From a virus, in the IMG/VR virus record IMGVR_UViG_3300045988_031645, positions 1 to 40,649 of that record: a stretch of 40,649 bases of DNA; one strand, given 5' to 3'. The notes under the pieces were generated by a model. The model did no database searches, had not been told where the DNA came from, and saw only the letters and a program-made list of their open reading frames with translations. Both the position numbers and the translations under genes were made by a program. Positions 1 through 40,649 of this stretch are shown piece after piece (the first letter of the stretch is position 1; the number at the start of each line of letters is the position of its first letter).

Positions 1-119
1 ATCTGCGCCGAGTGCAGCGACCTCTTCCTCTCTCGATGGTGCGTCCGGTGCCTTGCTGGCGATGAACTCGCTGTGCACCTTCTTGTCTGCGTTTGCTGTC
101 CCTAAAACGTCCTCAGTAA
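1..119. repeat. End-overlap repeat, copy 1 (identical to 40531..40649)
   Basis: By direct reading, the first 119 nt and the last 119 nt of the window are the same string. The repeat lies inside a CDS, so it most simply marks a circular or circularly permuted genome with 40,530 unique bp. Confidence 0.95.
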
Positions 120-147
120 ATGTTAATCTTACGTGTACCTTTTCCAT
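1..147 (-). CDS. 5' part (codons 1-49) of a 203-aa hypothetical protein that spans the circular junction; the rest is 40066..40530
   Basis: ATG at 147..145 with AAAGGAG 9 nt upstream. It reads MEKVHVRLTFTEDVLGTANADKKVHSEF..., in frame with the 40066..40608 ORF through the duplicated 119 nt. Confidence 0.8.
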   Translation of the reverse strand, partial: MEKVHVRLTFTEDVLGTANADKKVHSEFIASKAPDAPSREEEVAALGAD

Positions 148-778
148 GTGTTCAAACTCCTTTTCTTTGTAAAAACTCTGCTGATCATTGCGTATCGACG
201 CAATGCCATTGCAGTACACATCGATGCGGCTCCTTGCCGTTGCGGCGCGTAGCTTCTCAGTGCTATGCCCTTGCCATCAATGCAACTCCGATCATTTCGT
301 TGCCTTTGCTCTTCTGTACATTTCAGCTCAATGCCATCGCTATGCTATTCAGGGCTCCGCCAATCCATAGCCGATCAACTGAGCATCACACTTCTCTGCT
401 GTGCCATTGCGGATCAAATCTACACTCCTCTAACCTACGCCTTCGCCAAGCAAATCATTGCTTTTCCTTTGCCTTGCGTCACTTAGCTGTGCTTTGCCTT
501 TGCAGTTCGCTTCCTGGCATTGCGCCTCTTTGCCATCGCACTACATATCGATGCTGTTCGCTGCCACTGCTTTGCTGCTCTACCAAAATCACCACATTGC
601 CATCGCCAAGCGATTCTTAACTTCGCTTCACCTCAGCTATGCTTTCTATCTCCTCGCCATGCCTCTGCCTCGCAATTCCATCTTTACTTCGCAATACCGT
701 TGCGAGTCTACGCGTTCTGCACTCTGCCATTGCCTTTCTTTGCTCCGCCGACCCCTGCGCTGCCATTGCCATGCAACG
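148..778. repeat. 630-bp non-coding block of about 10 degenerate 60-70 bp units, each opening with TGCCAT[T/C]GC (GC[A/G]ATGGCA on the transcribed strand)
   Basis: Motif copies start at 204, 272, 332, 402, 470 (TGCCTTGCG), 531, 598, 660 (TGCCTCTGCC), 725 and 761. No minus-strand ORF of 60 aa or more lies here, although every neighbouring gene is minus-strand. The plus strand is visibly pyrimidine-rich and gives implausible Cys/His/Leu-rich ORFs in all three frames. Confidence 0.7.
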
Positions 779-1027
779 CTAAACCCTAGCGGCGCACACT
801 TCGGTGTAGCGCATCGTTCTGGTCCTCGAAATATGGCCCTTACTTACCGGTTCTACCACGACCAGGTGTGGCAGCTTCCGCACGACGGTGCAGACGATGT
901 TGATCTCGTCCGCATCAGGATTCGAGTACCGGACTCTCTCACCGATCTGGACGCGGTCTCTCCATCGTTCGATCGTCGTCATCGGCCAGCTGATGTATTT
1001 ATTCGATAATGCCACTAGTCCCTCCAT
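779..1027 (-). CDS. Hypothetical small protein (82 aa from MEGLVALSNKY...)
   Basis: The C-terminal half of track ORF 779..1225 reads protein-like. The upstream half overlaps the better ORF 1015..1266 in another frame. The start is chosen at an internal ATG and is uncertain. Confidence 0.5.
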   Translation of the reverse strand: MEGLVALSNKYISWPMTTIERWRDRVQIGERVRYSNPDADEINIVCTVVRKLPHLVVVEPVSKGHISRTRTMRYTEVCAARV

Positions 1028-1266
1028 TCCCTCGTGTAGTACTGATAGATCGGGCAGCTCTCGAACCTGTCCTCGCAGAAGATCTCGAGATAGTCTCGAA
1101 GTTCTTCGCGGTTCCGTAACCGGATGATGTGTGTCGCATCGAAACCGAGGTTCTCTTCCTTCGCGCACTCCACGCCCTGGAACTGCCCCTTGTTCGTTCG
1201 TACCACATTCCGGTACAGCGGACATTTGATTGTCGTTGATTCAAACTTGAAACCCACCTGGTCCAC
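1015..1266 (-). CDS. Hypothetical Cys-containing small protein (83 aa)
   Basis: Track ORF with globular-looking sequence (MDQVGFKFESTTIKCPLYRN...CEDRFESCPIYQYY). AAAGGAGA lies just upstream. The true start may be the GTG at 1257. Confidence 0.6.
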   Translation of the reverse strand: MDQVGFKFESTTIKCPLYRNVVRTNKGQFQGVECAKEENLGFDATHIIRLRNREELRDYLEIFCEDRFESCPIYQYYTREWRD

Positions 1267-1477
1267 TCTCCTTTACAAGATAGTATCGTCTGTATCTACA
1301 TGGATCTCCGCGCCGATTCCGACCGGTCTCCCATGTAGAACCAATGTTGTAGCCCTTCTGGCGGAGATCATGAACTCTGGAAGCCAGTCGAGCGATACCG
1401 AGATTCTCGACGGCCTCTGTGTTCGTGATCGTCCCACCATCAGACAGAGCATTCAGTATCAACTCGCACTGTGTCAT
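1241..1477 (-). CDS. Winged-helix/HTH DNA-binding protein (78 aa)
   Basis: Internal ATG at 1477 preceded by AGGAGG. The pattern MTQCELILNAL..G.ITNTEAVENLGIARLASRVHDLRQKGYNI is typical of small phage HTH proteins. Confidence 0.7.
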   Translation of the reverse strand: MTQCELILNALSDGGTITNTEAVENLGIARLASRVHDLRQKGYNIGSTWETGRNRRGDPCRYRRYYLVKESGPGGFQV

Positions 1478-2171
1478 GTCTCCTCCTTGCTGACGCGATC
1501 GCGTCGTAATCAATATCCTGCTTCGGGATATCTAAGAACTTGTTGTTCGGTGCCCTGCTGGTGGGCTTGTCCCGATCCCTGGCATGCCAGCAACGTGCTG
1601 CCGATCGCCAGTCTGCCATATCATCACCACCGACCTTCCAGCCCTTCGACTCGTAGAAATTCCAGAATGCGTCTGCATTGAAGCCGCTCATCCCCTCATC
1701 CCTCGCGAACGATCTCACATCCTCGATGGAGGGCGGCTGCTGCGAAGCAGCTTTCTTTACACACTCTTTAGAGTGTGTTTCTTTAGAGTTATATTTATAT
1801 ATATATTTAGCATCGTTTGCATTGCACTGCATTGCATCTGCATCCACCTGCATGCTGTTGCATCCGTTTGCATCAGTTTGCATTGCATCTGCATCCACCT
1901 GTACTTCTTCGGATGCTTTAGCTTTGCTCTTACTCCATCTCTTCTGTGCTGCATCAGACTTCTTTGCAGACTTCTCGCTGTATTTGGCTGCATCCTCGTC
2001 CATCTTCGCTGAGATCATCATGTAGATGGCATTGACGGTAGGATCAGAGATTTCATGCTCCAGCCCGAGCTGACGCGCACACAGCGCCTGGATCAGCTCT
2101 CCGGCCTGTTCGGTCGGTAGATTGGTGATGAGCGTTGACCAACTCTCATATATGATGAATGGTGTGGCCAT
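1440..2171 (-). CDS. Replication-organiser-like phage protein (243 aa) with conserved phage C-terminal domain
   Basis: The C-terminus FNADAFWNFYESKGWKVGG..MADWRSAARCWHARD resembles the conserved phage C-terminus seen in replisome-organiser proteins. An iteron-like cluster is embedded in the gene. RBS AAAGGAG before the ATG. Confidence 0.6.
   Translation of the reverse strand: MATPFIIYESWSTLITNLPTEQAGELIQALCARQLGLEHEISDPTVNAIYMMISAKMDEDAAKYSEKSAKKSDAAQKRWSKSKAKASEEVQVDADAMQTDANGCNSMQVDADAMQCNANDAKYIYKYNSKETHSKECVKKAASQQPPSIEDVRSFARDEGMSGFNADAFWNFYESKGWKVGGDDMADWRSAARCWHARDRDKPTSRAPNNKFLDIPKQDIDYDAIASARRRHDTVRVDTECSV
1759..1901. promoter_or_regulatory. Candidate replication origin inside the CDS: 8-bp hairpin, AT-rich tract, 10 TGCAT repeats including a 23-bp perfect direct repeat
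   Basis: ACACACTC-ttta-GAGTGTGT at 1759..1778. The tract tatatttatatatatatttag lies at about 1789..1810. TGCAT occurs 10 times between 1817 and 1893. TGCATTGCATCTGCATCCACCTG occurs at 1828..1850 and again at 1879..1901. Confidence 0.5.
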
Positions 2172-6491: not shown

Positions 6492-6926
6492 ATGGATAAA
6501 AAGACTTTTTCCCAATATGAAAGCCAATCAGTAAACAGGATAAGAGAACTGATTGCGACTCGATGTAATGGGAGCCAACAGGAGTTTGCAGACAGAACCC
6601 ACATAAGCAAGGCGTCTATTTCGCAATACGTAAATGGGAGGAACACACCTTCCAATCTGACAGCTCAGAAGATCGCAGACGCCTTTATGGTAGACCCAGC
6701 GTGGGTGCAAGGTTTTGATGTTCCTATGAAAGAACAGACCCACTACACCAACCCTGAGACAGCTGCTACAGCGCAGGAACTTTTAGACCGGCCAGAAATG
6801 CGAATTCTATTTGACGCAGCGCAAGACGCAAAGCCAGAAGACTTGCGAAAAGCAGCCGAGTATCTTGAGTTTCTAAAATGGGGCGAAAAACAAATTGAGT
6901 ACGAAGCGCATAGGGGAGCAGAATGA
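6492..6926 (+). CDS. XRE-family cI-like repressor (144 aa), no peptidase domain seen
   Basis: HTH QQEFADRTHISKASISQYVNGRNTPS. Divergent from the Cro-like gene. I saw no S24-type Ser/Lys motif. Confidence 0.8.
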   Translation: MDKKTFSQYESQSVNRIRELIATRCNGSQQEFADRTHISKASISQYVNGRNTPSNLTAQKIADAFMVDPAWVQGFDVPMKEQTHYTNPETAATAQELLDRPEMRILFDAAQDAKPEDLRKAAEYLEFLKWGEKQIEYEAHRGAE

Positions 6927-7360
6927 AACGATTATTAATATTGTGTGCTGCTATTTCTATCGCCACTTCTACCCCATCATATGCAGCCTACGAAGATCGT
7001 AAAGTAAATGATTACGTAGCGGAGAACGAGGCTATAGCTTATGACGACGGATACGATGACGGGTATGAGGATGGATACGAGGATGGCCATATTGAAGGGA
7101 TGAGTGAAGGCCGCAAAGCTGGATATGACGAGGGTTATGATGATGGACATTATGAAGGGATGAATGAAGGCCACGAAACCGGGTACGAAGAAGGCGAAAG
7201 CGAAGGATACGAAAGTGGATACCAAGAAGGCTATGAAGAAGGCGAATCGCATATGCGTTTCATACAAAAGCAGAACGATAACGCAACCAATAGACTTATA
7301 CTGTTCGGCGCTGTGGTTATCTTCATTATATATCTCTTTGAAAAGAAAAAGTCTGAATAA
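6923..7360 (+). CDS. Secreted/anchored acidic protein with 17 consecutive GxxxG (GY[DE][DE]) repeats (145 aa)
   Basis: N-terminal signal-like MKRLLILCAAISIATSTPSYA. The segment from DGYDDGYEDGYEDGHIEG to EGYEEGE has Gly at every 4th residue. C-terminal TM LILFGAVVIFIIYLF followed by KKK. Confidence 0.7.
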   Translation: MKRLLILCAAISIATSTPSYAAYEDRKVNDYVAENEAIAYDDGYDDGYEDGYEDGHIEGMSEGRKAGYDEGYDDGHYEGMNEGHETGYEEGESEGYESGYQEGYEEGESHMRFIQKQNDNATNRLILFGAVVIFIIYLFEKKKSE

Positions 7361-7369
7361 GGAGGAATT

Positions 7370-8845
7370 ATGGAACAACGCAGAGTAGCTTGCTACATCC
7401 GTGTGAGTACTCAGGAGCAGGCCGCACACGGATTTTCCGTAGGCGAGCAGGAAACGCGGCTGCGGAAGTACTGTGAGGCGCACGAGTGGACGATCGCCGG
7501 TGTGTATGAAGATCCTGGCTTCTCCGGTGCCTATCTGGATCGCCCAGGCATCCAGAAGCTGATCCGAGATGTCGATCTCGGCATCTTCGATACCGTGCTG
7601 GTGTGGAAGCTGGACCGCTTGTCCAGGTCGCAGAAGAACACCATGTATATGATCGAGGACGTGTTCCTGAAACACGACATCAACTTTATATCGATGAACG
7701 AGAACTTCGACACCAGCACGCCGTTTGGCCGTGCGATGGTCGGTATACTCTCCGTCTTCGCTCAGCTGGATCGAGATCAGATCACGCAGCGTATGACCAT
7801 GGGCCGGATTGGGCGCGCGAAGGCCGGTTACTACTCCGGTGGATCACAGCCGCCGATTGGCTATACCTACACCCGTGCGGATGGCAGCGAGAAGAAAACG
7901 CTGGAGGTGGATGAGTACGAAGCCATGCAGGTTCGCATGGTATTCGATCTCTTTCTGAACGGGCTCGACGGAAAGGACATGACCTTCACAGAGATTGCGA
8001 AGTACATGGCTGCACACTATACAAACCGGTACGGAGGATGGAAGCAGCGCTCTACGATCTCACGCATGCTGACAAACCCTGTTTATATCGGGAAGGTCAA
8101 GTTCTCAGGTGATTTCTATGACGGTATGCACGAACCGATCATTTCCGAAGATACATTTGATAAAGCCAAGGTGAAATACCAGCGCTACATTCAGAACTTC
8201 TCGCAGTCGATCCAGAACTTTAACGGCAGCTATCTTCTGACCGGACTCATACACTGCGGTGTATGCGGAGGCCGGTACTTCGTCACATCGGTGAAAAACA
8301 CCCACGCGACAGCGGCGATCAAGCCGTACTACCATTCATACACATGCTACGGTCGGAAGCCGGTAAAGAAGGGCATGGCGAAGAACGGCAAGTGTAGCAA
8401 TACGATCTACAAAATGGAAGTGCTGGACGATTATGTGCTGAAGGAAATCCAGAAGCTGAAGGAAACCTCGGAACTTATCGGAGATCTCCGTACCGGTCCG
8501 AAGGACGACAAGACAGCCGCCATCGATTCCAGGATCAGAGAACTTGATAAGCAGATGGGGAAGCTCGTCGATCTGTACCAGCTCGGCACCATCGCATTCG
8601 ACGAGATCAGAAGACGTACCGATGCTATACGAGCAGAGCGCGACAAGCTGAAAGGCGAACTTGAACATGAAAAAAGACCGGACGGTGTGATCTCGGAAAC
8701 TGAGTTCCGAGACCGCCTGGATGCATTCGACGCCGACATCTTCTCCGATCTCGACATCGGGCACAAGCAAGCTATCGTCCGATCTTTAATCAATAAAATT
8801 GTTATCTACCCGGATTCAATCGAAATCCGCTGGGCTTTCCACTAA
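7370..8845 (+). CDS. int: Large serine recombinase (integrase, 491 aa)
   Basis: N-terminal resolvase motif VACYIRVSTQEQ, a recombinase domain, the Cys cluster CGVCGGRYF...CYGRK...C, and a C-terminal coiled coil. Confidence 0.9.
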   Translation: MEQRRVACYIRVSTQEQAAHGFSVGEQETRLRKYCEAHEWTIAGVYEDPGFSGAYLDRPGIQKLIRDVDLGIFDTVLVWKLDRLSRSQKNTMYMIEDVFLKHDINFISMNENFDTSTPFGRAMVGILSVFAQLDRDQITQRMTMGRIGRAKAGYYSGGSQPPIGYTYTRADGSEKKTLEVDEYEAMQVRMVFDLFLNGLDGKDMTFTEIAKYMAAHYTNRYGGWKQRSTISRMLTNPVYIGKVKFSGDFYDGMHEPIISEDTFDKAKVKYQRYIQNFSQSIQNFNGSYLLTGLIHCGVCGGRYFVTSVKNTHATAAIKPYYHSYTCYGRKPVKKGMAKNGKCSNTIYKMEVLDDYVLKEIQKLKETSELIGDLRTGPKDDKTAAIDSRIRELDKQMGKLVDLYQLGTIAFDEIRRRTDAIRAERDKLKGELEHEKRPDGVISETEFRDRLDAFDADIFSDLDIGHKQAIVRSLINKIVIYPDSIEIRWAFH

Positions 8846-8971: not shown

Positions 8972-10312
8972 TCAAGTACTATCTTTGCACTCTGTATACC
9001 GTTCTTTATACTCTGCAACCTTCTTCGCGTATCGTATCATTCTGTAACGTTTATTCTGGCGTCTCTTCCATTTTGTCGGAGGCGTGTATCCGCCTTGTTC
9101 GAAGAACAAAGCGTCGAAGTACATTATCATGTTGACAGTTAGATGGAAGCCTTTGCCTTTATTTTGACTGCATAACCACGAGTTAAATTCAATGTGTATC
9201 TCAGCATATGGCTTTTGGCCGTGAATCATCATTTCTTTCAGTTTGCGCAGTTTTCCGTGTTCTTTAGTTATCGACTTGCGGTTTTGCTTTCGGACCACTC
9301 TGCCAGTTCTGCAAACTGAAAACCTAACTTTTAGGAACTCGAATTGCTCACCAAACTTTATGATACGGCACTTTTTAGGATTCATCGTTATGCCGAGTGA
9401 CGCCGCTCTTTTGACAAATTCATTTTTGATGTGTTCAAGGCGATCTATGTTTTCACATATAATATACCCATCGTCATTATACCGTCCGAATCCGTGAATG
9501 CCAAGTTCGTCTTTTATCCAATGGTCAATAGCCTTGCTAGGATATGCTATTGCTGTTATCTGAGACACCTGGGAGCCAAGGCCAAGTCCTAACTGTTCAT
9601 CAGTTTCTAAGCTAAATGCGTCGATGCACTGGTTATACACGTCACATATAGTTTTTTCCTTGACGGCGTTAAAAACAAGATCTTTTACACTTTTATGCGG
9701 TATATTGTCAAAATAACTATGGAAGTCAAAAACGAAGATACCTCCAGACAACCCGAAGTGTTGGTAATGCCAACGGAGATCGCATGTTAGCCTATTAAGA
9801 GAAAAGTCGGTTCCTTTCCCTGGAAGACACGCTCCATTATTAAAGACCAAGGATGGCTTAATAATAGGTATTAGGCACTCGTTACAAAGTGCCGCCTGCA
9901 CGCACTTTTCTGAAATATGTACGCTTTTTATATGCCTGTGTTTTCCTCTTTCCACGATATCAAATTCGTGAAAGCCTTTTGGATGCCATTCCCGGTTTAG
10001 CAGATCACTCGACTCTTTTTCTGCATTCACAAACAGGTTGGCGCCAAATGACTGTGTGCTTGATTTCCATCTTGATTGCTTACTTGTCTTTTTGTATCCA
10101 GCCACGATGGAAGCTGTGCTGAAAACTATCTCCGGGTTCGCGTATTGGCTTCTAAGCAATTCTTTCCTTTTTTCTCTTTTTTTCAGCCTTCTAAAATATC
10201 TATCTATGTGTCGTTTATCTTTCATATACATGCAGTACGAGCTTATTGTAGGCATAGGTTCTACTCGCTTGCCTTTAGTCATGAAGTGCGAATTACTATG
10301 ACTTCGCGCCAT
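8972..10312 (-). CDS. DGR reverse transcriptase (up to 446 aa; start uncertain)
   Basis: RT motifs NGACLPGKGTD, FDNIPH, LGLGSQVSQ (the DGR-type GxxxSQ) and RYNDDGYII (YxDD). It lies directly downstream of the TR. Confidence 0.85.
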   Translation of the reverse strand: MARSHSNSHFMTKGKRVEPMPTISSYCMYMKDKRHIDRYFRRLKKREKRKELLRSQYANPEIVFSTASIVAGYKKTSKQSRWKSSTQSFGANLFVNAEKESSDLLNREWHPKGFHEFDIVERGKHRHIKSVHISEKCVQAALCNECLIPIIKPSLVFNNGACLPGKGTDFSLNRLTCDLRWHYQHFGLSGGIFVFDFHSYFDNIPHKSVKDLVFNAVKEKTICDVYNQCIDAFSLETDEQLGLGLGSQVSQITAIAYPSKAIDHWIKDELGIHGFGRYNDDGYIICENIDRLEHIKNEFVKRAASLGITMNPKKCRIIKFGEQFEFLKVRFSVCRTGRVVRKQNRKSITKEHGKLRKLKEMMIHGQKPYAEIHIEFNSWLCSQNKGKGFHLTVNMIMYFDALFFEQGGYTPPTKWKRRQNKRYRMIRYAKKVAEYKERYTECKDST

Positions 10313-10431
10313 GCATTAAGCGTTCGGCTATCGGCATCTGCTATGTGCATTTCCCCTTGCGGGTCGGACATTCACTCCTTCATGCAAAGCTTGATTTCGA
10401 AACTACTTTGGCTTAGTTTTGCTTGCCGAAT

Positions 10432-17262: not shown

Positions 17263-20200
17263 TCAATACTTCGAAAAGGTGGTCGTCTTGTAGCCTGCGA
17301 TCTCCCACAGCTTCTTCTGCGCATCCGCAGAAAGCCCGCTGCCTCTCAGTACCTTCTTCACGGCCTTCCGCCGGTCGTCACCATCCTTGCCGACCTTCGC
17401 AACGTCCATCTCCTCTTTCAATGAGAAGTAGTCCGCTGCATCATAACCGGCATCCGTCCAGTCCTTCAGCTTCGACGGTTTGCCCGACTCGATGCCCTTC
17501 TTCGAAAGGATCTCGTCCATGGCCTGTTCTCTTGCGAGCTGCTTCAGGTCGCCTGCAATCTTACTCTGCTTGTCCTCGCTGTCGCTTTCTTTAATGCAGT
17601 CGTCCGCCAGATCGTAGTAGTAACTCTCATATGCGTCCTGGTACTGCATGTACTCCTTGCCGCTTAGGTCGTAGGTCTTACCATCCGACTTGATGGAAGT
17701 ATCCATCACGCCAGGTAGAATCTCTGCGTTACCGTTGCTTTCCACGATGTCGTAGATCGCCTTCCGGTCTGCATCTTCTACTCCGTGATCAGACTCCTTC
17801 CGGTATGCCTTCAGTTTGTCGAGTGCAGCGCGACGAATCTCTCGTTCATCCTCCTGGCCCTTCGCAAGGCCGATTGTCTTCTGGTAGTACGACTTCATAT
17901 TACTGTCGAGCGTGCTTTCCAGTGCCTGCTCATTCGTGCCATAGGAGCTGTACATGATATCGGACTCCGATGCCTTATCGTAGATCCAGTTGCTAATGTC
18001 ATTCGAATATACATTATCACGAAGATACGTATTCTTTACACCCATCGTCCAGTCGCGCTTTCCCTTCACTCCCTTTCCGTCGTTGATTGGGAAAAGTGCG
18101 GAAGGATATGACCACATCCAGCCGAGAATGTTCTTGCCAAAATGGTCGGCCTTCTGTGGACTAATGCCGAGATACTTTCCGAGCAGGTACGCCATTTCGC
18201 TTGACTTCTCCGTGTACTGCAGTGCCGGCACCTTACCTTCATTCTGCTTACTTACGATCGGACGGTTGAGGTAATCCTTATTCGCTCTAAGCTGCGACAT
18301 TTCGCCAACAGCACCGAGTGAGCCAAGAAATCCGGTCGTAAAATCATCGTTTGCCGACTGTACTCCATTCGCCACTACATTGACCGGATATTCTGCCAAA
18401 TCAGACACAATACTCGGAAGTGTGCTGTCGGTAAGGTAGCTGTAATATTCGTTGAAAGCGTGGTCGTTATCGCCCACCGTTCTCTCAAGAAGTCTCTCAA
18501 AGAACGACTCAAGCACAGCTACGTTCTGTCCCTTCGGGATGGTGAAATACTTTCCATCGCCTAACGAGATACAGAAGTAGGAGTTTTTCGTGTAGTTCGA
18601 AAGCATATCGAAATCATCCTTGCTTTCCTTATTCCTACGCGACCATGCGACGACGAGTGCAGCCATGATCAGAGACAGCGCTGCGGAGAATGCAATTCTG
18701 CCTGCAATCGCCCGTCCTCTCTCCTTTCCGTTCACCTCAAACCATTTTCCGGTACCGTCTCCGCCGTCTCCACCGTCTCCGGCACCGCCGACGAATTTCA
18801 TCTCCCGAAGATCCTCGGCAGTGAAGTATCGGATCATCTTGTCCGTTGCCTGCACGCCTGCATTGAAGAACGGGATAAACTGGTTGAGCGTTTTTGAATT
18901 GATGCCATTTCTACGGAAGTTTACCGTGATGTCCATCGCAGCATAAAATGCCTTCTGCGGATTCATGCCTGCTTCACGGCACATCTTATAGGTTGCGAAT
19001 CTCGGCCCCATCTCGATCATATCCGAAACAAACATCGCCCATTTGAGCGGATTCATTTCCGGGTGCTCTCTCGTAGAGCTGAGTAACTTTCGCATGTCCT
19101 TTACATAGTCCTTGCTGCCGGACCATACCGGTGCACCCTCACCGCCCATCGCAAGATACTCGGAGAAGAGCGGATCAACACTCTTGCCCCGTGCGTTGTT
19201 GATGTAGTTGAGGTAGGTATCTGCGACACCCTGCAGCATCTTTCCAGGATTCTTCGTCGCCATCGAGTACGTAAGCAGCGTCTGTAGATCTCTCGGCGCA
19301 TTGGAGAAGATCGACCAGATCACATTGTTTCCGGTGATATTTGACGTGATGAATCTTGAAACCGCTCCGAAAGCCGTGATCACCTTGCTGGCGTTCCGGT
19401 AGTCCATGGAAGTGATGGAGCTAAGAAGCAGCGGATCATTGATCTTCCAGAACTCCGGCTTACCGGCTACAAGAATCTTGATCTCACCTCTGTTCGGTTT
19501 CGCCTTTCCAAGCTGGAACTGCGTCATCGTATCATCGATGGAACCAATGACTTCCTGTAAAGCATCCTGCATTTCCGGTGCGATTTCGATACCGGCAATG
19601 TCATGCGTTTCGTTATAGAGACGGTCCTTGATTCCGCGAAGATCGACTTCGACCGGAACCTTCGGATCAGGCATCTTTTCCATGAACAAGGCATCCGCTT
19701 TACTTCTTACGGCTTCTCTTCTGAGCTGAAGCATGACTGCGTTTCTCGCGGCTGCATTCTGGAGCTTCGTGATGTTGTCGATGATGTTATCAACCGGATG
19801 GATCAGATCACGTCCGCTGCCCTTTGCCTTGAACAGCGAATTGCCGCGCTCCTTGAAGCCTGCACGGAAGAACGGTACATAACACGGGTTCTCCTTCTGC
19901 ATCGCCTTATATGCGTCCGCAGAAATCAGCCCCTCGCCAACCGCGTAAGTCCACATGAAGTCGCTTTCAAACTTGTATAGTCTGTCAGCAGCTTCGATGA
20001 ACTCCGGGTGCTCTGCTTCGATCTCCGAGATCCGGTTCTCCATCCACTGCGCGTTGTTCTTGCGGTCATCCGCAAATACACGCTTGCCCTGGGCGATCCA
20101 CTCAATACCATGCTTCACCGCGAGGTACTCACCGAATGCGATATAAACTTCCTTGTCGTTCACATCGATACCGGCGAGCGCATCTTTAAGACCTGGGCCA

Positions 20201-23200
20201 ATATAATTACCGTCCAGATCATAGATGCCCTCTATGATGGTCTGTGCCACTCGTGCATCCGTATAGGCTGCATTCGTCGCATAGGTATATGTATTGGTGC
20301 CGTTTCTGACATCGAACTCGCGGAAGCCATGAACGGAATCTACATTTTCCTGGTACCAGCCATGATACCAGTCGTGAAATTTCTCCATGTTCGTCCGGTA
20401 GTCCGGTCGGCTATCCTCTTTCAGTCTGATCGAGCTCTTCGCGTCGCCAGCGTCCATCGAATAGTATGCGTTCACCTGATCCGCGAAGCCGTTAAACTTC
20501 GCAAGCTCCCCAGGGCTCATCTGCTTGAGGATGTAGTCGGTGAGCTTCGGGAAATCGATACGCGCTGCATCGCGGTTCTGTAAGTAGTATCTTACAAACT
20601 CTGCAAGTCCCTCCTTTAACTTGACCGATGCACTCTTTCCGCTATAGAGATCAGCATTGTCCGGGTTCATGAAAAATGCGGTCTCGATATCCTTGCGCAC
20701 TTCCTTCGGAAGTCGTGCGCTGCCAGTAATGTTGTAGGTCTTGTCGAGCCAGTGACCGAACTCGTGTGAGAATGTCGGAAGGTCGTTCGTGATCTTCGTC
20801 CGAATTCCGCGGTTCCGCTCATTGAACTCGCCCATGTTTCCTTCACCCTTCACATACCGGGTGCCGGATGTTACATTGAATCCCCAGTCATGCGCCGCCT
20901 GACCAATGATATCTGACAGACGCTTCGATGAAGTCTCCGCACTGCCCTCGTTCTTCTTAGCCGTCCAGCGCTCCTCTGGCTTCTCGCCGTCCTCGTTCGG
21001 TGTTGGATTCTTCTTAGAGTTCAGCACTCCGCCGGACTTATCGCCCGTGTCGTCATGCTTCGACATACTATGAAGCACACCATCATCGTCCTCTGTTCCT
21101 GCTGACCTTACATCCATAACAGGATTTGAGCGGATGATTGATCCTAGTGTGTATTCACCTTTAGATCCTGTCGGAATGAAGTATCTCTTTTCGTAGCCGA
21201 TGGTTTCCGAGATGATTCCTTCAACTCTGTTCAATGCCCAGAGATTGCTACCAGTGACTTCGATTCTCCACTCGCCAGACACTTTCCGTCTTCTGATCTT
21301 CCACCTGTTGTCTCTGAGTACAAGTTCCTGATTCTTGTCAAGCACCTCTGACATCAGAGACTTCAATGTGTACTGCTTTTTTGTACGCGCAGTGCCGAGA
21401 TTACGAAGAACAGAGTCGATCTGATCCGGGCTGATAACTCGACCGAGATACTGCTTGCCATCCGTGGTGACGATACGCATGACTCGTGTGTTGTTTTCCG
21501 GTAATTTGCTCCAGATCGGAAGAAGCGTACCAGTAAGCATATGCAGAGTATTTTCCACATATTCCGGCGCTTTCTGCGTTTCCGCCTCCCACGCCTTCTT
21601 CCACTCCTTCTTTGGCAGCTTTTCGGCCTGCTCATTGAACGTTTTTTCTACAAAGTAGCTGCTCTTTCCCCTCACAGGACCATCAAGCCTGTACTTCTGA
21701 ACGACTTCTCCAGTGCGCTTGTCGGTGGTCGTGCTGCCTTTATACACGGCTCTCACGGAACCATCCTTCAGCCGGTACATACCCATGAAGTTCAGATGCG
21801 CATCTTCAACACTTTCATACGGAATAAGCGTAGGTCTGTTATAGACCTTCAGCTGTACGTATTTTGTTTCGGCATGCGTATTCTCATCCTGGTAAACAGG
21901 CTTTTCGTCTGCGACTTCGATCTTATCCGCCTTGTAGGACTCCATGCCACGGTCAAGTGTTCCGTCCTTCATCGCGTTTTCGGTCATTTCTTCGAGAATA
22001 GAATAGAAGTTTTCGAACACTTCGTTCTGGTCCTCTACTCGCAGTGCAAGGATTCGGTTCAGGAACTTCGGCACGTTTCGTAAATCGGTAGATGATTTAT
22101 TAATCAGACCATTCTTATCATAAATCTTGATTCCAAGTTCTCTGATTACTTCATCCGGTGCACTCTCATAGTATTTTGCAAGTGCGTCCTCAGAAATCGG
22201 ATTTTCAAGATTATCCCTTTCACTGAACACGCCGCTTCCTGCGTCTCTCTGGCCCTTCGTGAGTGCACCCATCTGATTAAGGCGCTTCGCAATCGTCGAA
22301 GTGAAACGCTTCTGGCCCATTACATTGGTTGTTACCAGCTTATAAATGGGTGCGCTTGCTTCGTTCGTTCTGTGCGTACGTCCCAATCCCTGAATCGCTG
22401 CATCTGCCTTCCATCCTGCCTGGAGAATGTAGTGAACTCGCTGCTGCTGATTCTTTGCACGCAGGTCTGCATGGTAGCTCTTTCCGGTACCGCCCGCCTC
22501 TGAGAAAATAAGGATTCGTTTTTTGCCGGCCTGGAATGCAGCAGTATCAGCTTCGCCCTTTTCCTTACTCCATTTCTCGACGACTCGTTTCATAGAGCCA
22601 TCTGGCTGCCGATGATAAACGACTCGTCTCGTTCTTCCGGTAACCTCAGCCACGTTATCCACGCCGAATGTATCCAGCAGCATTTCAAGCGGGCCGTCTG
22701 GCACCTGCATCTGCCCGACTTCTTCGATCAGTTTATCTCTTAATGCGATCGCCTTCTTATCAAGTACCGGTTCACCATTGCTATTGGTGACAGGTTTAGA
22801 ATGAGTATTTCCATTCTCGTCCTGGTACTCTTCGTAAGACTGCACAGGGAATGACTTCTGAAGGAAATCGATCAATGTCTCCGACGGTGTGAGGTCAAGG
22901 CCGTCGAGATCACCACCATTTTTGGCGTTATCAGCGATCTTCCGCTTTGCTTCTGCTTCATTGGTATTTGTCAGCTGAATTACAACGCTTTTACCATTGT
23001 CAAGCTGAGTCTGAATATCCGAAAGTACGCTTGGCATGGCCATTGATGTAAGAATCTGATTATAGAATCTCTGTAACGAACCCCAGAACGCGCTTGCCGC
23101 AGCTCCCCTTGCATTACCGTTATTGGAAGCTCCGGTCAATTCGAGTGCCTTATCGATATTTCGAAGCACAACTCGCCATGCATCACTCATCTTGTCATAG

Positions 23201-26200
23201 ATTTCATGCTGAATCGGAGTTAATTCGTGCTCGATCGTGTCATACTGTACACCGTCATAGCTGATGCTTCGTGCCATGTAGTCGCCCAATGACTTCATAT
23301 CTCGTGCAACAAGCTCCATGGCAGCTAAGCCGCCAGCAGACACCTTCGTATAAAAATCGTTGAAATTTGCGAATGAAGTACCAGGCCCCCAAAGTCCGAG
23401 TCTTTCGAGGTATGCGAAGTTCTCAATAGAAGATGCGCCTGTCGCCGTTGCATAGACGATTCTTGCCTTCGGGAAAGCCTCCTGAAGTTTAAGACCCCAT
23501 ATAGCCTTCTGCGTCGGCTCACTGCTTCCACGAGCTTTTTTGATACGCACAGCATTTTTCATGTTGTGTGCCTCATCAAGAACGATTACGCCATCGAAAT
23601 CTTCACCAAGCCAATTTGTAAGACGATCAATGCCATCCTGCTTTCTTGAACCTAACGTATCATAGGTAGCGAAGCAAATACCCTCGCTGGCATTAATGTC
23701 CTTATTCTTAAATTTCTTGAATGAGAATACATCCTTTTTGTCCTGCTCGAGGTCTGCCCAGTCTCTTTGAGCGTCTTCGATCAGGCTTTCTTTTTCACTT
23801 ACCCACACAGCTTTTTTGCGTCCCTGGTTAAAATTATCAAGGATGATCGAGGCGAGCTGAAGTCCCTTTCCTACACCGGTCCCATCACCGATGAAGTATC
23901 CCTTACGTTCTCCGCTCGGTAAAAACTGCTGGTGCGCCTGTCCTGCATATACAATATTCTCAAGCTGTGCGCTTGAAGGCATGCCTCTATCAATAAGCTC
24001 CTGCGGAAGATGCGGCACATACGTTGCGTCTGGCGGTTCTACTGCACCCATGGCTGCGCTCTCTACGAGCTTGCCCGGATGCGCTTTCGCGCCATTAATC
24101 CGCACCTTCTCAGGCACATATGGTGTGAATGTGCTGTTAATATCGACATTGGCTACACGTTCTGCCTTTTCACTGGATGCCGGCTTCTCCAGCTTTACTG
24201 ACTGATCAGCCCTTCCAGAATCGGATTCATTGCCTTTGCTGCTGCTTTCAGATACTCGTCGCTCGGTACTTCTTCCGGTCCCCACTCTACCGTCTTCAGA
24301 TTTTCCAGGCTTTCTGGAATCTCTTTCACTACCGTTTCGGCGTCCTCGTCGTCCACCAGATTCTCCCAGCCCTTCTTCACTGCTTTCAGAAATTCCTCGT
24401 CTGTCGGTGGCATCATCTCCGCTGCCATCATGAGTGCCTGATCCGGATCGTTCAGTTCGTTCAGGAACCACTCCTGATCGTCCCGTCCCAGATTCTGAAA
24501 CAGATTTATCAGATTCCATGTCTGATCTACTAATCGGGTTTCTCTCATTTCTTACTCCTTCCAGGTCGGTCAGCAGCTCGGAAAGCTCCTTATATTCTCC
24601 GGTTAAGGTCTTTCCTTCCTGTGGGCCTACCTTATCAATGACTACCAGCTGGTCGTCGAAAGTAGTTCCATACTTCTGATAGTTCGAACCGTCAATTCGC
24701 ACGTTCGACCGGATGGTGTATTCCCTGCGGAGGTCGTTCCACCATGCTGAGAACGCCGGTGCATCATCTGCCATGCCGCGACCGAGAATAGCGACCAGTC
24801 TGCCGCCTTCCTGTAGACGGTCGAGTGCTTGCTCGATGTGTCGCTTTGCATTGGCCGTCTTGTTGGTCTTCATTCTGCCTGCCGTAGATGAAAAAGGCGG
24901 ATTCATGATAACCACGGTCGGCTGAATATCGTCAGGAAGAACATTATTGATCTGCTCTGCATTCTCGTTGAATGTGCCGTCGAGTCCGAGCTCATTGAGG
25001 AAAGCAAGTCTGCGCTTTGAAAGCTCATTTCCATAAACCTTCGCGCCCCACGCCTTACCCCAAAGTGCAAGACCGCCAATACCGGCGGACGGCTCAAGCA
25101 CAACATCAGCGCTCGTGATATTCGCTAAGCGCGCTGCAGTGTAAGCAATCGTCGGTGGCGTAGAGAACTGCTGGTATGATTCCATCTCCTCGGTTCTCTT
25201 CGTCTGCGTAGGGATATTGCGCATGATGCTCTGGAGCTCTGACAGAGTGTTGAGCGCGTCTTCAAGTGATCTGTTTCCTGCCTTTACGAAATCGGCATTC
25301 ATCAGATACTTGTTGATGCCCAGCTCCATACCGTCATAAGCATCCTTTACGGAATATGTGCCTTCTGCCATCGTTCCGCCATAAGCATTATTCGCAACAT
25401 CGAAAAGCCAGTTTGCCGTAAACGACTGGCCGGACGCAACCTTCTCTGCAACTCTGTCCGCGATGGATGACTGCGGATTGCTGTTTGCGACCGGCTTTTT
25501 CTCCGGCGCTGCAGGACTGGTTTTTGCCGCTGGCGCTGGCTTTGATGCTTCCTTCGGTGCTTCCTTCGGCTCTTCCTTCTTTTCCTCATTCTTCTGCATG
25601 CGGATGTTGTACTGATTATATCCCAGTTTCCACATAGCGTCAGCAGCATCCGGTCCGACCGGCATCTTGTAGAACTCAGCGAAGTTGCTGTCGTTCGATA
25701 ATCTCGAATACGGCTCGCCATTTAAGCCCGCCTGGTAAACCTGTGACATGAAATTGTCCCACTTATAGACGGTCGATGTATCGACAGACGGCCACTGCTC
25801 AGAGCCAAGCGAGAAGAAATCGATGTATGTTCGTCTCTCTGCTTCCTTCGTCCCGAAACGCTTGTACGCTCTGTCCGTTAACGCATCGGCCACATCCGGC
25901 TGAAGAATTCCACCAGAAACAAAGCTGTCCGCTTCGGCAGCCGCTTTCTCGTTCCTCGTGAGGCCATTATTTTCCGCAAATTTAGTAAGATCATCGATAA
26001 CCGCGTCACGTGACTCATACGGTTTTGTGACATAGCGAAGAGCCCGACCATCGACGATCACGCCGCCGAACTTGTCGTTTTTCGTGTCACGAAGGCGGCC
26101 AACATAGCCATCCTCGTCTGCGGTTATTTCGTACTCGATCTGATCAGCCGTAAACTTTCCGTTGCTCTTGAGCTTATCATGAAGCTGATTCGTCGTGAGC

Positions 26201-28656: not shown

Positions 28657-28737
28657 CACGTTCTCCTTAAAATAAAGTGAAGTTGCTACCGTCAATTATG
28701 AGTGAAGGCGTCGAAAAACGTCACCGACCTATAAAAA

Positions 28738-39992: not shown

Positions 39993-40073
39993 TCATCTAA
40001 ACAGTATCACCACGATCAGAACGATCATGACGAGTATCGGTATCAACAGTATCAGATTGACCAAATCAGTCAT
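39993..40073 (-). CDS. 26-codon hydrophobic micro-ORF (MTDLVNLILLIPILVMIVLIVVILFR)
   Basis: Not in the track because it is under 60 aa. The ATG overlaps the upstream stop (AATGACTGA). Its TGA abuts the ATG of the next gene (TGAATG). It fills an otherwise empty 73-nt gap exactly. Confidence 0.5.
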   Translation of the reverse strand: MTDLVNLILLIPILVMIVLIVVILFR

Positions 40074-40649
40074 TGATCTCCTCCCATGTAAATCTTCCCT
40101 TGCCTGAGTTACGCCACTGGCCCAGTCCCTTGTACCGGCCATAGTTCAGCCATTCGCGGACAGCCGCTGCATGCTTGTCCTCAAGGCATTCGACCGTGAA
40201 CTCGATCCAGCTTCCGGTTGGCACCGCTTCCGAATTCGCAAGCGCAACGCGCTCGCCCATCGCTGTAGCAGCACGCAGAGGTCTCTGACAGTTCCCCATA
40301 GGGCCGGACATGTGGATCTGGATCATGCGCGGAAAGACGAAGATGCAGCCATCGATGATCTTCTTGAATGCCTTGATGCTGCACGACTCCTTCGAGTAGT
40401 CCTGCCCCTTGCAGCGAGATAATGCGCTGCATGTGTCCTTGAAAAAGCCCTTGATCTGGTAGTCCCAGAACATCGGCGTCTCTCCATCCTCCATGCGCGG
40501 AAATACGGTCATCTCCTTGTGCTCCACCTCATCTGCGCCGAGTGCAGCGACCTCTTCCTCTCTCGATGGTGCGTCCGGTGCCTTGCTGGCGATGAACTCG
40601 CTGTGCACCTTCTTGTCTGCGTTTGCTGTCCCTAAAACGTCCTCAGTAA
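40066..40649 (-). CDS. 3' part of the junction-spanning 203-aa hypothetical protein (open to the window edge)
   Basis: The frame stays open upstream of the track GTG at 40608 to the window end and continues at 147..120 after the duplicated 119 nt. The protein ends ...YKGLGQWRNSGKGRFTWEEIND. Confidence 0.8.
   Translation of the reverse strand, partial: TEDVLGTANADKKVHSEFIASKAPDAPSREEEVAALGADEVEHKEMTVFPRMEDGETPMFWDYQIKGFFKDTCSALSRCKGQDYSKESCSIKAFKKIIDGCIFVFPRMIQIHMSGPMGNCQRPLRAATAMGERVALANSEAVPTGSWIEFTVECLEDKHAAAVREWLNYGRYKGLGQWRNSGKGRFTWEEIND
40531..40649. repeat. End-overlap repeat, copy 2 (identical to 1..119)
   Basis: By direct reading; see copy 1. Confidence 0.95.

What the first reader, a model, noticed from the sequence alone, without database searches (positions are those of the whole stretch)
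148..778. A 630-bp non-coding block of about ten phased TGCCAT[T/C]GC units in the middle of the early operon
This is by far the largest gap in a genome that is otherwise packed with ATGA-type overlaps. The 9-mer TGCCATTGC or TGCCATCGC, or a one-step variant, begins at 204, 272, 332, 402, 470, 531, 598, 660, 725 and 761. The spacings are 68, 60, 70, 68, 61, 67, 62, 65 and 36 nt, so this is a degenerate tandem array of about 65 bp. Two units share a longer 26-nt core, TGCCAT[T/C]GCA[G/C]TACA[C/T]ATCGATGC, at 204 and 531. The first copy is part of a palindrome, GCAATGcCATTGC. The plus strand is pyrimidine-rich, so the minus-strand transcript would be purine-rich with repeated GC[A/G]AUGGCA. A 9-mer with one degenerate position is not expected even once by chance in 630 bp. 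Candidate roles, all inference: iterons or an origin for a phage initiator, phased binding sites for a partition- or packaging-type protein, or a structured or sponge-like non-coding RNA made from the early transcript.
Basis: partly seen in the sequence, partly recalled or inferred. Interest (0 to 1): 0.65.

Follow-up and report, generated by a model that had tools for sequence, protein, structure and literature searches.

The report
Phage VIPR guide-RNA array, not iterons
The 630-bp gap is a long array of five-base repeats sitting next to a small Cas7-like protein gene, which matches the VIPR RNA-guided systems of phages described in 2026 preprints, so it is a real element of a very recently described kind rather than a replication origin.

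Summary
The non-coding block at 148-778 is real, and the 9-mer TGCCATYGC is strongly enriched there (7 exact copies; about 1 expected in the whole window). The "~65-bp tandem repeat" is a mis-parse. On the minus (transcribed) strand the block holds about 124 pentanucleotide repeats, G-H-D-N-N, with a G in phase in 99% of units. Every 5th to 7th unit is a hexamer, G-C-A-A-n-G, followed by GCA. This gives about 20 modules of 26-36 nt.

The gene just downstream (203 aa, wrapping the contig's terminal repeat) folds as a Cas7/Csm3-like RAMP. In 84 of 86 related phage loci the only strong period-5.15 G block lies directly next to this gene. It is always on the sense strand and can be upstream or downstream. 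Array sequence turns over fast, while the phased G is conserved.

This matches VIPR systems (Vipr RAMP plus pentanucleotide-repeat vrRNAs; bioRxiv 2026). Profile comparison with the validated phiSUSP1 Vipr gives a full-length alignment (E about 1e-5). Natural targets, RNA processing and an accessory gene were not established. Verdict: a new member of a known, very recent kind. The iteron, partition and sponge readings are not supported.

The parts
148..779 (-). Array of about 124 pentanucleotide repeats (vrRNA-like). The unit is G-H(C>A>T)-D(A>G,T)-N-N. The array is arranged in about 20 modules of 26-36 nt.
   Evidence: A dynamic-programming chain of G's (steps of 5 or 6 nt favoured) puts G in phase in 99% of units, with 76% 5-nt and 19% 6-nt steps. 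Its score is 109.6, against 57.9 +/- 4.6 for shuffles (maximum 69) and at most 68.8 for other 631-nt blocks of the genome. The spectral peak is at period 5.1-5.2 with power 20. There is no Rfam, tRNA or TRF hit.
207..769 (-). Hexamer delimiters with consensus G-C-A-A-n-G, followed by GCA. They start on the minus strand at 769, 733, 703, 668, 637, 606, 570, 539, 503, 472, 446, 410, 371, 340, 309, 274, 243 and 212.
   Evidence: Spacing in the window is mostly 31 or 36 nt. Across 85 loci there are 1468 hexamers with C 77%, A 63%, A 79%, n, G 75%, then G 92%; their spacings are 31 (293), 26 (258) and 36 (186).
148..227 (-). 3'-proximal end of the array plus the ribosome-binding site (AAGGAG, 8 nt before the ATG) of the RAMP gene. 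This is the best-conserved part of the block.
   Evidence: It is 94% identical to L001 and 79% to L002, and it is the only part that aligns with L003. No terminator or promoter consensus lies between the array and the gene on the minus strand.
1..147 (-). 5' end (codons 1-49) of the 203-aa Vipr-like RAMP gene. The ATG is at 147-145.
   Evidence: Window 1-119 is identical to 40531-40649, a terminal direct repeat, so the genome is a 40,530-bp circle or concatemer. The ORF continues across the junction.
40066..40649 (-). Remainder of the 203-aa Vipr-like RAMP gene (stop at 40066-40068). Its last 119 bases duplicate window 1-119.
   Evidence: AlphaFold2 gives pLDDT 90.6 and pTM 0.84. The top Foldseek hits are type VII Cas7 (8z4j and related entries) and type III Csm3 (9ash, 6xn3), E 4e-8 to 2e-6, TM about 0.55. 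A profile search of PDB sequences hits type VII Cas7 at E 2e-5. hhalign against phiSUSP1 Vipr gives E 7.6e-6.
779..1027 (-). Upstream 82-aa ORF whose stop codon abuts the array. It marks the end of the early replication/recombination gene block.
   Evidence: ORF map. It has no Pfam or PHROG hit and a homologue only in L001, so it is not a conserved partner.

Best explanation
The block is the guide-RNA array of a VIPR-type system (Viral Interference Programmable Repeat).

Inferred steps. The minus strand is transcribed with the early operon and with the gene that follows it. That gene encodes a 203-aa single-domain RAMP related to Cas7, here called Vipr-like. One protomer binds each pentanucleotide repeat. 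By analogy with phiSUSP1 Vipr, the conserved G and the base after it are held by the G-rich loop and thumb. The next two variable bases are presented for non-contiguous pairing with double-stranded DNA, two paired bases then one skipped. The RNA-protein filament then represses genes of competing phages or prophages in the same Oscillospiraceae/Clostridia host. The GCAAnG|GCA hexamers shift the pentamer register by one base every 5-7 repeats. They most likely mark the boundaries of individual guides (a 'staggered' array), which would make about 20 short guides.

Shown here: the repeat anatomy, its strict linkage to the RAMP gene, the RAMP fold, distant homology to a validated Vipr, and conservation of the phased G against fast turnover of the other positions.

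Not shown here: transcription, processing, protomer-per-repeat binding, DNA targeting and the biological role.
For: 1. Anatomy. The array has 124 units with G in phase in 99%, far beyond shuffles.

2. Linkage. In 84 of 86 IMG/VR loci that encode a homologue, the only period-5.15 G block of at least 200 nt abuts that gene. It is always on the sense strand, upstream in 34 loci and downstream in 50. The two remaining loci have weaker adjacent signals.

3. Protein. The model is confident and its best structural matches are Cas7/Csm3. The BFVD homologue A0A8S5R426 is already named 'Cas system-associated RAMP superfamily protein'. The G-loop GLGQWRNSGKGRF is conserved.

4. Match to the literature. 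The VIPR preprints describe a phage-encoded RAMP of about 20 kDa flanked by intergenic pentanucleotide-repeat vrRNAs. They list alternative consensus forms NNNGG, YNNNG and NNNNG, and they describe staggered arrays (10.64898/2026.04.26.720920).

5. Homology. hhalign of the family profile against phiSUSP1 Vipr is full-length and colinear: 172 columns, probability 84%, E 7.6e-6. Profile against profile gives E 5.9e-5.

6. Residue logic. W178 and R179 of phiSUSP1 Vipr read G2 and Y3 (10.64898/2026.04.26.720927). They align with the near-invariant W188 and R189 here. H17 and D177, which read G1, align with T17 and Q187. This fits repeats that keep one G followed by a mostly pyrimidine base.

7. 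Evolution. In 578 homologous array blocks the mismatch rate is 2.4% at the G and 8.6-13.2% at the other four positions. The arrays of phages with 99%-identical RAMPs are mosaics with module-sized replacements.

8. RNA properties. The RNA is unstructured (z = 0.09), as expected for a protein-coated guide scaffold.
Against: No natural target was found. Two 22-base gapped patterns gave 0 hits in IMG/VR. Local tests of several pairing and skip rules on 1.4 Mb of related phage DNA showed no excess over reversed or shuffled guides.

The architecture differs from the experimentally studied type II VIPR. There are no discrete ~100-nt units of 9-16 repeats and no conserved structured 3' tail or pseudoknot. 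The repeats carry a single G rather than GGY, and the tract runs continuously for 630 nt.

No conserved accessory (vap) gene was found. Sequence homology to phiSUSP1 Vipr is only moderate (probability 65-84%). Expression, processing and binding are untested. The VIPR work itself is at preprint stage.
Confidence: 0.8

Rival explanations
1. The RAMP protein coats the long periodic RNA, but the complex is not a DNA-targeting guide. It could be a decoy or sponge for host Cas7-based CRISPR effectors or other RNA-binding defence proteins. It could be an autoregulatory leader or trailer that controls translation or stability of the RAMP mRNA. It could also be a structural ribonucleoprotein.
For: The array is continuous over about 124 repeats, lies in the same transcript as the gene, and shows no detectable tails. 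No targets were found. Positions 1 and 2 of the unit are compositionally biased (C/A and A) rather than free.
Against: The non-G positions turn over quickly and modules are replaced between near-identical phages. A decoy or autoregulatory site would not need this, whereas guides engaged in an arms race would. A homologous protein with the same kind of repeats has been shown experimentally to guide DNA binding.
Confidence: 0.1
2. These are DNA-level repeats: iterons of a replication origin, or a centromere- or packaging-type array bound by a phage DNA-binding protein.
For: The block lies between the replication/recombination genes and the late genes. The mean period of 5.16 bp is close to half a DNA helical turn. 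A weaker ATGCA-rich period-5 stretch lies inside the DnaD-like DUF6291 gene.
Against: The non-integer period is fully explained by 5-mers punctuated by sequence-specific hexamers. The element follows the RAMP gene, not the replication genes, to either side and always on the sense strand. Its sequence is not conserved between close relatives. No initiator, ParB-type or TerS-type gene is a conserved neighbour.
Confidence: 0.03
3. The block is a decaying microsatellite or a pseudogene remnant with no function.
For: Low-complexity composition and stop codons in all sense frames.
Against: The phased G mismatches about five times less often than its neighbours. The same architecture recurs in every relative examined, down to 44% protein identity. 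The family is very large: 1701 clusters at 50% identity.
Confidence: 0.02

Closest known systems
VIPR systems, type II (Escherichia phage phiSUSP1, Pseudomonas fulva prophage); bioRxiv 10.64898/2026.04.26.720920 and 10.64898/2026.04.26.720927
   Same: Both are phage-encoded and have a single small RAMP of about 200 aa with a G-loop ending ...G-x-G-x-W-R-...-G-R-F. Both carry tandem pentanucleotide repeats with a conserved G-containing motif and variable positions in the flanking intergenic DNA, on the gene's strand, either upstream or downstream. Neither has cas genes or a CRISPR array. W and R of the G-loop are conserved.
   Different: phiSUSP1 has discrete vrRNAs of about 13 strict 5-nt YNNGG repeats plus a tail of about 35 nt with a pseudoknot, each with its own upstream sequence. 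Here the tract is continuous, about 124 repeats with one conserved G, punctuated by hexamers every 5-7 repeats, with no tail. The G1-reading residues H17 and D177 are replaced by T and Q. No vap gene is recognisable. The host is a Clostridia gut bacterium. Protein similarity is detectable only by profile methods.
VIPR 'staggered vrRNA arrays' and alternative repeat consensus forms (YNNNG, NNNNG), mentioned in the same preprint (fig. S18 legend and methods)
   Same: The legend says consecutive vrRNAs come from positions overlapping by 1 nt, so that the end of one marks the start of the next. That fits the one-base register shift at each GCAAnG|G delimiter. The single-G consensus fits YNNNG/NNNNG.
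   Different: The figure and data tables could not be read here, so identity with one of the seven published types is an inference, not a test.
Class 1 CRISPR backbone: Cas7/Csm3 filaments on crRNA (types III and VII)
   Same: Closest solved folds. One RAMP protomer binds per fixed number of guide nucleotides, and a thumb interrupts the guide periodically.
   Different: There the period is 6 nt and sequence-independent, the spacer is contiguous, repeats of 25-40 nt flank unique spacers, and Cas5, Cas6, Cas10 or Cas11 partners and adaptation genes are present. None of these is found here.
TRAP bound to (G/U)AG repeats in Bacillus trp leader RNA (from general knowledge, not tested here)
   Same: A homo-oligomer reads a triplet repeated every 5-6 nt along single-stranded RNA. 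This was the first analogy that the periodicity suggested.
   Different: The fold is unrelated. The ring binds 11 repeats and has a regulatory role in cis, with no variable guide positions.
Iterons of phage and plasmid origins (lambda ori in gene O, RepA-type iterons)
   Same: Multiple phased short repeats in a non-coding stretch near replication genes.
   Different: Iterons are 17-22 bp, few in number, conserved together with their initiator, and act as double-stranded DNA. Here the repeats are 5 nt, number about 124, are strand-specific, and are linked to a RAMP gene.

Membership tests
VIPR (Vipr protein + vrRNA) | A small (~20 kDa) single-RRM RAMP protein with G-rich loop and thumb, encoded outside any CRISPR-Cas locus, mostly in phages | tested here: met
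   The protein is 203 aa. AF2 pLDDT is 90.6. Top Foldseek hits are Cas7/Csm3. The G-loop is conserved. The beta-hairpin at residues 128-152 is read as the thumb from the model only, not from a superposition. The window is a complete temperate phage genome (terminase, portal, serine recombinase). No CRISPR-like array was found by TRF, and none of the proteins scanned against Pfam is a Cas protein.
VIPR (Vipr protein + vrRNA) | Sequence homology of the protein to an experimentally validated Vipr | tested here: inconclusive
   hhalign of the family profile against phiSUSP1 Vipr (ALH47069) gives probability 84%, E 7.6e-6, 172 colinear columns. Profile against profile gives probability 65%, E 5.9e-5. 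tblastn does not connect the two. This is supportive but below the level usually taken as proof.
VIPR (Vipr protein + vrRNA) | Tandem pentanucleotide repeats with a conserved G-containing motif alternating with variable bases, in intergenic DNA flanking the vipr gene on its strand | tested here: met
   The window has 124 units of G-H-D-N-N. The same is seen in 84 of 86 relatives, plus 2 weak cases. The G mismatches about five times less often than the other positions. The consensus is the single-G variant rather than GGY.
VIPR (Vipr protein + vrRNA) | vrRNA unit of 9-16 repeats capped by an invariant structured 3' tail (type II architecture) | tested here: not met
   No break in periodicity longer than a few bases was found, and no recurrent non-periodic segment. 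The fold z-score is 0.09 for the array and -1.39 for its 3' end. There is no ribozyme or other Rfam hit. The preprint reports other architectures (staggered, ribozyme-interspersed, single), so this excludes the type II layout, not the family.
VIPR (Vipr protein + vrRNA) | An adjacent accessory gene (vap) with a predicted DNA-binding or nuclease function | tested here: inconclusive
   No neighbour is shared by most loci. A Cro-like HTH lies upstream in 38 of 85, and an HTH_39 winged-helix homologue of window 1241-1477 lies nearby in 10 of the 84 related loci searched. The preprint notes that some Viprs are stand-alone genes.
VIPR (Vipr protein + vrRNA) | Variable dinucleotides match DNA of competing mobile elements under the 'two paired, one skipped' rule | tested here: inconclusive
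   Two 22-base gapped patterns gave 0 hits in IMG/VR. There was no enrichment over reversed or shuffled controls in 1.4 Mb of related loci for nine rule and skip combinations. The databases and pattern tools available were too limited for a fair test.
VIPR (Vipr protein + vrRNA) | vrRNAs are expressed, processed and co-purify with Vipr as a helical filament with one protomer per repeat | not testable with these tools
   This needs RNA sequencing, pull-down and cryo-EM.
CRISPR-Cas class 1 | CRISPR array of 25-40-nt direct repeats with unique spacers, plus Cas5/Cas6/large-subunit and adaptation genes | tested here: not met
   No such repeats were found. Only one RAMP gene is present.
Origin iterons / partition centromere | Repeats conserved with, and adjacent to, a cognate initiator or ParB-type gene, and acting independently of strand | tested here: not met
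   Linkage is to the RAMP gene, on one strand only, and on either side of it. The sequence is not conserved among close relatives.

The most novel reading that the evidence does not exclude
This very large clade of Clostridia gut phages (more than 1700 protein clusters at 50% identity) could be a VIPR architecture that has not been characterised, and perhaps not described. Its features would be: repeats with a single conserved G, read by a Vipr that has lost the G1 pocket (T17/Q187 in place of H17/D177); and a continuous tract of about 120 repeats in which one extra base (GCAAnG|G, recreating a canonical GG-pyrimidine motif) is inserted every 5-7 repeats. That interval equals the six-protomer helical turn reported for the Vipr-vrRNA filament. 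The array would therefore encode either about 20 'one-turn' mini-guides that specify only 10-14 target bases each, or one very long filament that needs a register slip at each turn.
Probability: 0.3. Interest if true: 0.65.

Novelty: new member of a known kind. Interest (0 to 1): 0.5.

Why it matters
VIPR is a newly reported mode of RNA-guided DNA recognition, proposed to pre-date CRISPR. Only type II systems from Proteobacteria phages have been studied experimentally. This locus shows that a temperate Oscillospiraceae-type gut phage carries a compact version: one 203-aa gene plus a 630-nt array placed at the end of its early operon. The family is abundant in human-gut viromes. The clade offers a natural comparison for how the repeat code and the protein pockets co-vary (one G versus GG). 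It also bears on how guides are delimited without a tail, and on how short a guide can be. If the targets can be decoded, the arrays would record which phages compete in the gut. For annotation, it shows that long 'non-coding gaps' with a 5-nt G periodicity next to a small unannotated gene should be called as VIPR loci rather than origins.

Tried and rejected
- **Coding region or recoded gene.** Rejected. Stops occur in all three sense frames, and the plus-strand ORFs are compositional artefacts.
- **tRNA, tmRNA or a known RNA family.** None was found at the gathering threshold or at E <= 1.
- **A ~65-bp tandem repeat.** TRF does not find one. Lags 62 and 67 are simply multiples of 5.16.
- **DNA half-helical-turn phasing (5.16 x 2 = 10.3 bp).** I considered this seriously because the extra base recurs quasi-regularly. 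I dropped it when the 6-nt units proved to have their own consensus, GCAAnG, and the element proved strand-locked to the RAMP gene.
- **Type III toxin-antitoxin RNA repeats, or a TRAP-like attenuator.** Dropped once the neighbouring protein folded as Cas7-like.
- **Close relatives in GenBank phages by DNA similarity.** No match. By protein search, only four human-faecal metagenomic phages matched.
- **Profile-based scan of GTDB genomes.** It failed for lack of a conserved word. The single-protein scan gave three MAGs: Oscillospiraceae, Clostridia and Chitinivibrionales.
- **Search for a conserved accessory gene.** None was convincing.
- **Target prediction.** The sliding 12-unit test covered ten offset-and-anchor settings, each at three skip lengths; the module-level test covered nine rule-and-skip combinations; two IMG/VR pattern scans were also run. 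Hits were only low-complexity or at chance level.
- **Promoter and terminator scans around the arrays.** Uninformative. The exception is an AT-rich hairpin plus T-run, seen by eye after the L006 array, followed by a strong promoter.

Full report
**What is in the sequence.** The window is a complete phage genome of 40,530 bp plus a 119-bp terminal duplication, with almost all genes on the minus strand. Positions 148-778 lie between the stop codon of an 82-aa ORF and the ATG (147) of a 203-aa ORF that wraps the contig ends. All three minus-strand frames carry stops. The long plus-strand ORFs reflect a pyrimidine-rich strand. The other three sites are looser variants. No tRNA, Rfam family or ~65-bp tandem repeat is detected.

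**The real repeat.** When the block was aligned with three relatives, the invariant columns were G's spaced 5 nt apart.
- On the minus strand, G autocorrelation peaks at lags 5, 10, 21 and 26. The spectrum peaks at period 5.1-5.2 with power 20. Self-identity is highest at lags 5, 31, 36, 26, 67 and 62.
- A dynamic-programming chain of G's gives 122-124 units with G in phase in 99% of them. Steps are 5 nt in 76% and 6 nt in 19%. The score is 109.6, against 57.9 +/- 4.6 for shuffles and at most 68.8 elsewhere in the genome.
- The unit is G, then C/A/T (almost never G), then A/G/T (almost never C), then two nearly free positions.
- The 6-nt units are not random slips. Across 85 loci, 1468 hexamers share the consensus G-C-A-A-n-G and are followed by G-(C/A)-A. 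They recur every 26, 31 or 36 nt.
- In the window they start at 769, 733, 703, 668, 637, 606, 570, 539, 503, 472, 446, 410, 371, 340, 309, 274, 243 and 212. It captured about half of the delimiters, which is why the period looked like 65 bp.

**Linkage to a gene.** Homologues of the 203-aa protein were fetched from IMG/VR. In 84 of 86 loci the only period-5.15 G block of at least 200 nt abuts that gene, and it is always on the gene's sense strand. It is upstream in 34 loci and downstream in 50. The remaining two loci have weaker adjacent signals. Array length ranges from about 250 to 850 nt. One distant relative (L006) uses GTA rather than GCA, and its array ends at a hairpin plus T-run just before the next promoter. 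In the window no promoter or terminator consensus separates the array from its flanking genes. Position on either side, one strand only, and tight abutment to the gene all point to an RNA made on the same transcript as the gene.

**The protein.**
- The family is very large: more than 8000 clusters at 90% identity and 1701 at 50%. It has no Pfam domain and no informative name from any source.
- Conserved motifs include LGT, DYQIKGFFK, QRPLRAxTAQGERVALAxSE and a C-terminal G-rich loop, GLGQWRNSGKGRF.
- AlphaFold2 gives a confident model (pLDDT 90.6).
- The best Foldseek matches are type VII Cas7 and type III Csm3 (E 4e-8 to 2e-6, TM about 0.55).
- The family profile hits type VII Cas7 and Csm4 in PDB sequences.
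- A 57%-identical viral protein in BFVD is already labelled a RAMP superfamily protein.
- Hosts of close relatives are Oscillospiraceae/Clostridia MAGs, and GenBank matches are human-faecal phages.

**What is known.** A text search for Cas7 plus pentanucleotide found a 2026 bioRxiv preprint that describes VIPR systems (10.64898/2026.04.26.720920).
- VIPR consists of a phage-encoded ancestral RAMP of about 20 kDa (Vipr) and vrRNAs built from 9-16 YNNGG repeats plus a structured tail.
- The NN bases pair with double-stranded DNA, skipping every third target base. The complexes repress competing phages.
- The methods list alternative repeat forms (NNNGG, YNNNG, NNNNG). [quoted passage not shown]
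- The companion cryo-EM preprint (10.64898/2026.04.26.720927) shows one protomer per repeat in a right-handed helix with six protomers per turn (five when DNA is bound). G1 is read by H17 and D177, G2 by R138 and W178, and Y3 by a pocket that includes R179.

**Direct comparison.** I located the phiSUSP1 locus in KT454805: Vipr is ALH47069 and vap1 is ALH47068. Its vrRNAs have a strict 5.0-nt period over about 13 repeats, followed by a tail. hhalign of the window family against phiSUSP1 Vipr is colinear over the full length (probability 84%, E 7.6e-6; profile against profile, probability 65%, E 5.9e-5). In those alignments W178 and R179 correspond to the near-invariant W188 and R189 here, whereas H17 and D177 correspond to T17 and Q187. 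This fits repeats that keep only G2 and a mostly pyrimidine Y3. It is an inference from alignment, not a structural result.

**Evolutionary behaviour.** In 578 homologous array blocks the phased G mismatches at 2.4%. Positions 1-4 mismatch at 8.6, 8.8, 11.6 and 13.2%. In the hexamers, G0, A3 and G5 are the conserved positions. Between the window and a phage whose RAMP is 99% identical, the array is a mosaic of blocks at 82-94% identity and replaced segments of 26-94 nt. With a relative at 86% protein identity, only the last ~50 nt align. The RNA is predicted to be no more structured than shuffles (z = 0.09). This is the pattern expected of a conserved scaffold that carries fast-changing specificity positions.

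**Interpretation of the hexamers (inference).** Each GCAAnG|G junction recreates a canonical GG-pyrimidine motif and shifts the pentamer register by one base. The modules contain 5-7 repeats, close to the six-protomer turn of the Vipr filament. The junctions may be guide boundaries or processing sites, as in the preprint's 'staggered' arrays, or they may be a per-turn adjustment in a long filament. I could not see the preprint's figures, so I cannot say whether this exact layout is already described.

**What was not established.**
- No natural targets were found. Two 22-base gapped patterns gave no IMG/VR hit. Tests of several pairing and skip rules on 1.4 Mb of related phage DNA showed no excess over controls. 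If guides are single modules, they specify only 10-14 bases. That cannot be searched meaningfully with the exact-pattern tool.
- No conserved accessory gene emerged.
- Transcription, processing and binding are untested.

**Rivals.** An iteron, partition or packaging role is contradicted by three things: the strand-locked linkage to the RAMP gene on either side, the lack of sequence conservation, and the sequence-specific origin of the non-integer period. A decoy or autoregulatory ribonucleoprotein cannot be excluded, but it does not explain the turnover of the non-G positions. A functionless microsatellite is excluded by the conservation pattern.

**Verdict.** The element is best filed as a VIPR-type guide array with its Vipr gene, a new member of a kind described only in 2026 preprints. 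It has clade-specific features worth experimental follow-up: a single-G repeat, hexamer punctuation, no tail and a very long array.

Noticed in passing
window 8972-10420 (-): A 446-aa reverse transcriptase ORF (RVT_1; weak similarity to group II intron and defence-associated RTs). The Rfam RT-2 RNA motif (RF03077, 76.8 bits) overlaps its 5' end at 10208-10420. It lies next to the serine-recombinase/repressor module, so it may be a phage-borne RT-plus-ncRNA defence or accessory cassette.
   Followed up: partly
window 17263-28695 (-): A single 3810-aa ORF takes up 28% of the genome. It carries Strawberry-notch-type helicase domains (AAA_34, Helicase_C_4, ResIII) and an LPD38 'large polyvalent protein' domain.
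   Followed up: partly
window 1-119 and 40531-40649: An exact 119-bp terminal direct repeat. The window is a complete circularly assembled genome of 40,530 bp, and the RAMP gene spans the junction.
   Followed up: yes
window 1790-1900 (-), inside the 243-aa DUF6291/DnaD-like gene: A run of ATGCA/GCAnn units with period 5-10 nt (11 ATGCA in about 75 nt) encodes a low-complexity linker (MQVDADAMQ...). It resembles the array units and is the only other period-5 signal in the genome. Copy number varies in relatives (4 in L001, 8 in L003). Its meaning is unknown.
   Followed up: partly
window 1241-1477 (-): The 78-aa HTH_39 winged-helix protein has homologues within about 1-2 kb of the RAMP gene/array in 10 of the 84 related loci searched. 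It is a weak candidate for a VIPR accessory (vap-like) DNA-binding protein.
   Followed up: partly
L010 2886-3134 and 37 other loci: A Cro/XRE-type 82-aa HTH gene lies about 330 nt upstream of the array or RAMP gene in 38 of 85 loci. This suggests the module usually sits right after the early promoter and cro gene.
   Followed up: no
L021 3476-3725: Inside an otherwise G-phased array, one ~250-nt stretch shows the period-5 signal on C (the opposite strand). It may be an inverted array segment.
   Followed up: no
L006 5634-6330 and 6320-6401: A distant relative (49% protein identity, 102-kb contig) uses GTA rather than GCA as the repeat core. Its array, downstream of the gene, ends at an AT-rich hairpin plus T-run, immediately followed by a near-consensus promoter (11/12, with TG).
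   Followed up: partly
window 6492-8845 (+): Lysogeny module on the opposite strand: an HTH_3 repressor-like protein (144 aa) and a 491-aa large serine recombinase. The phage is therefore temperate.
   Followed up: partly
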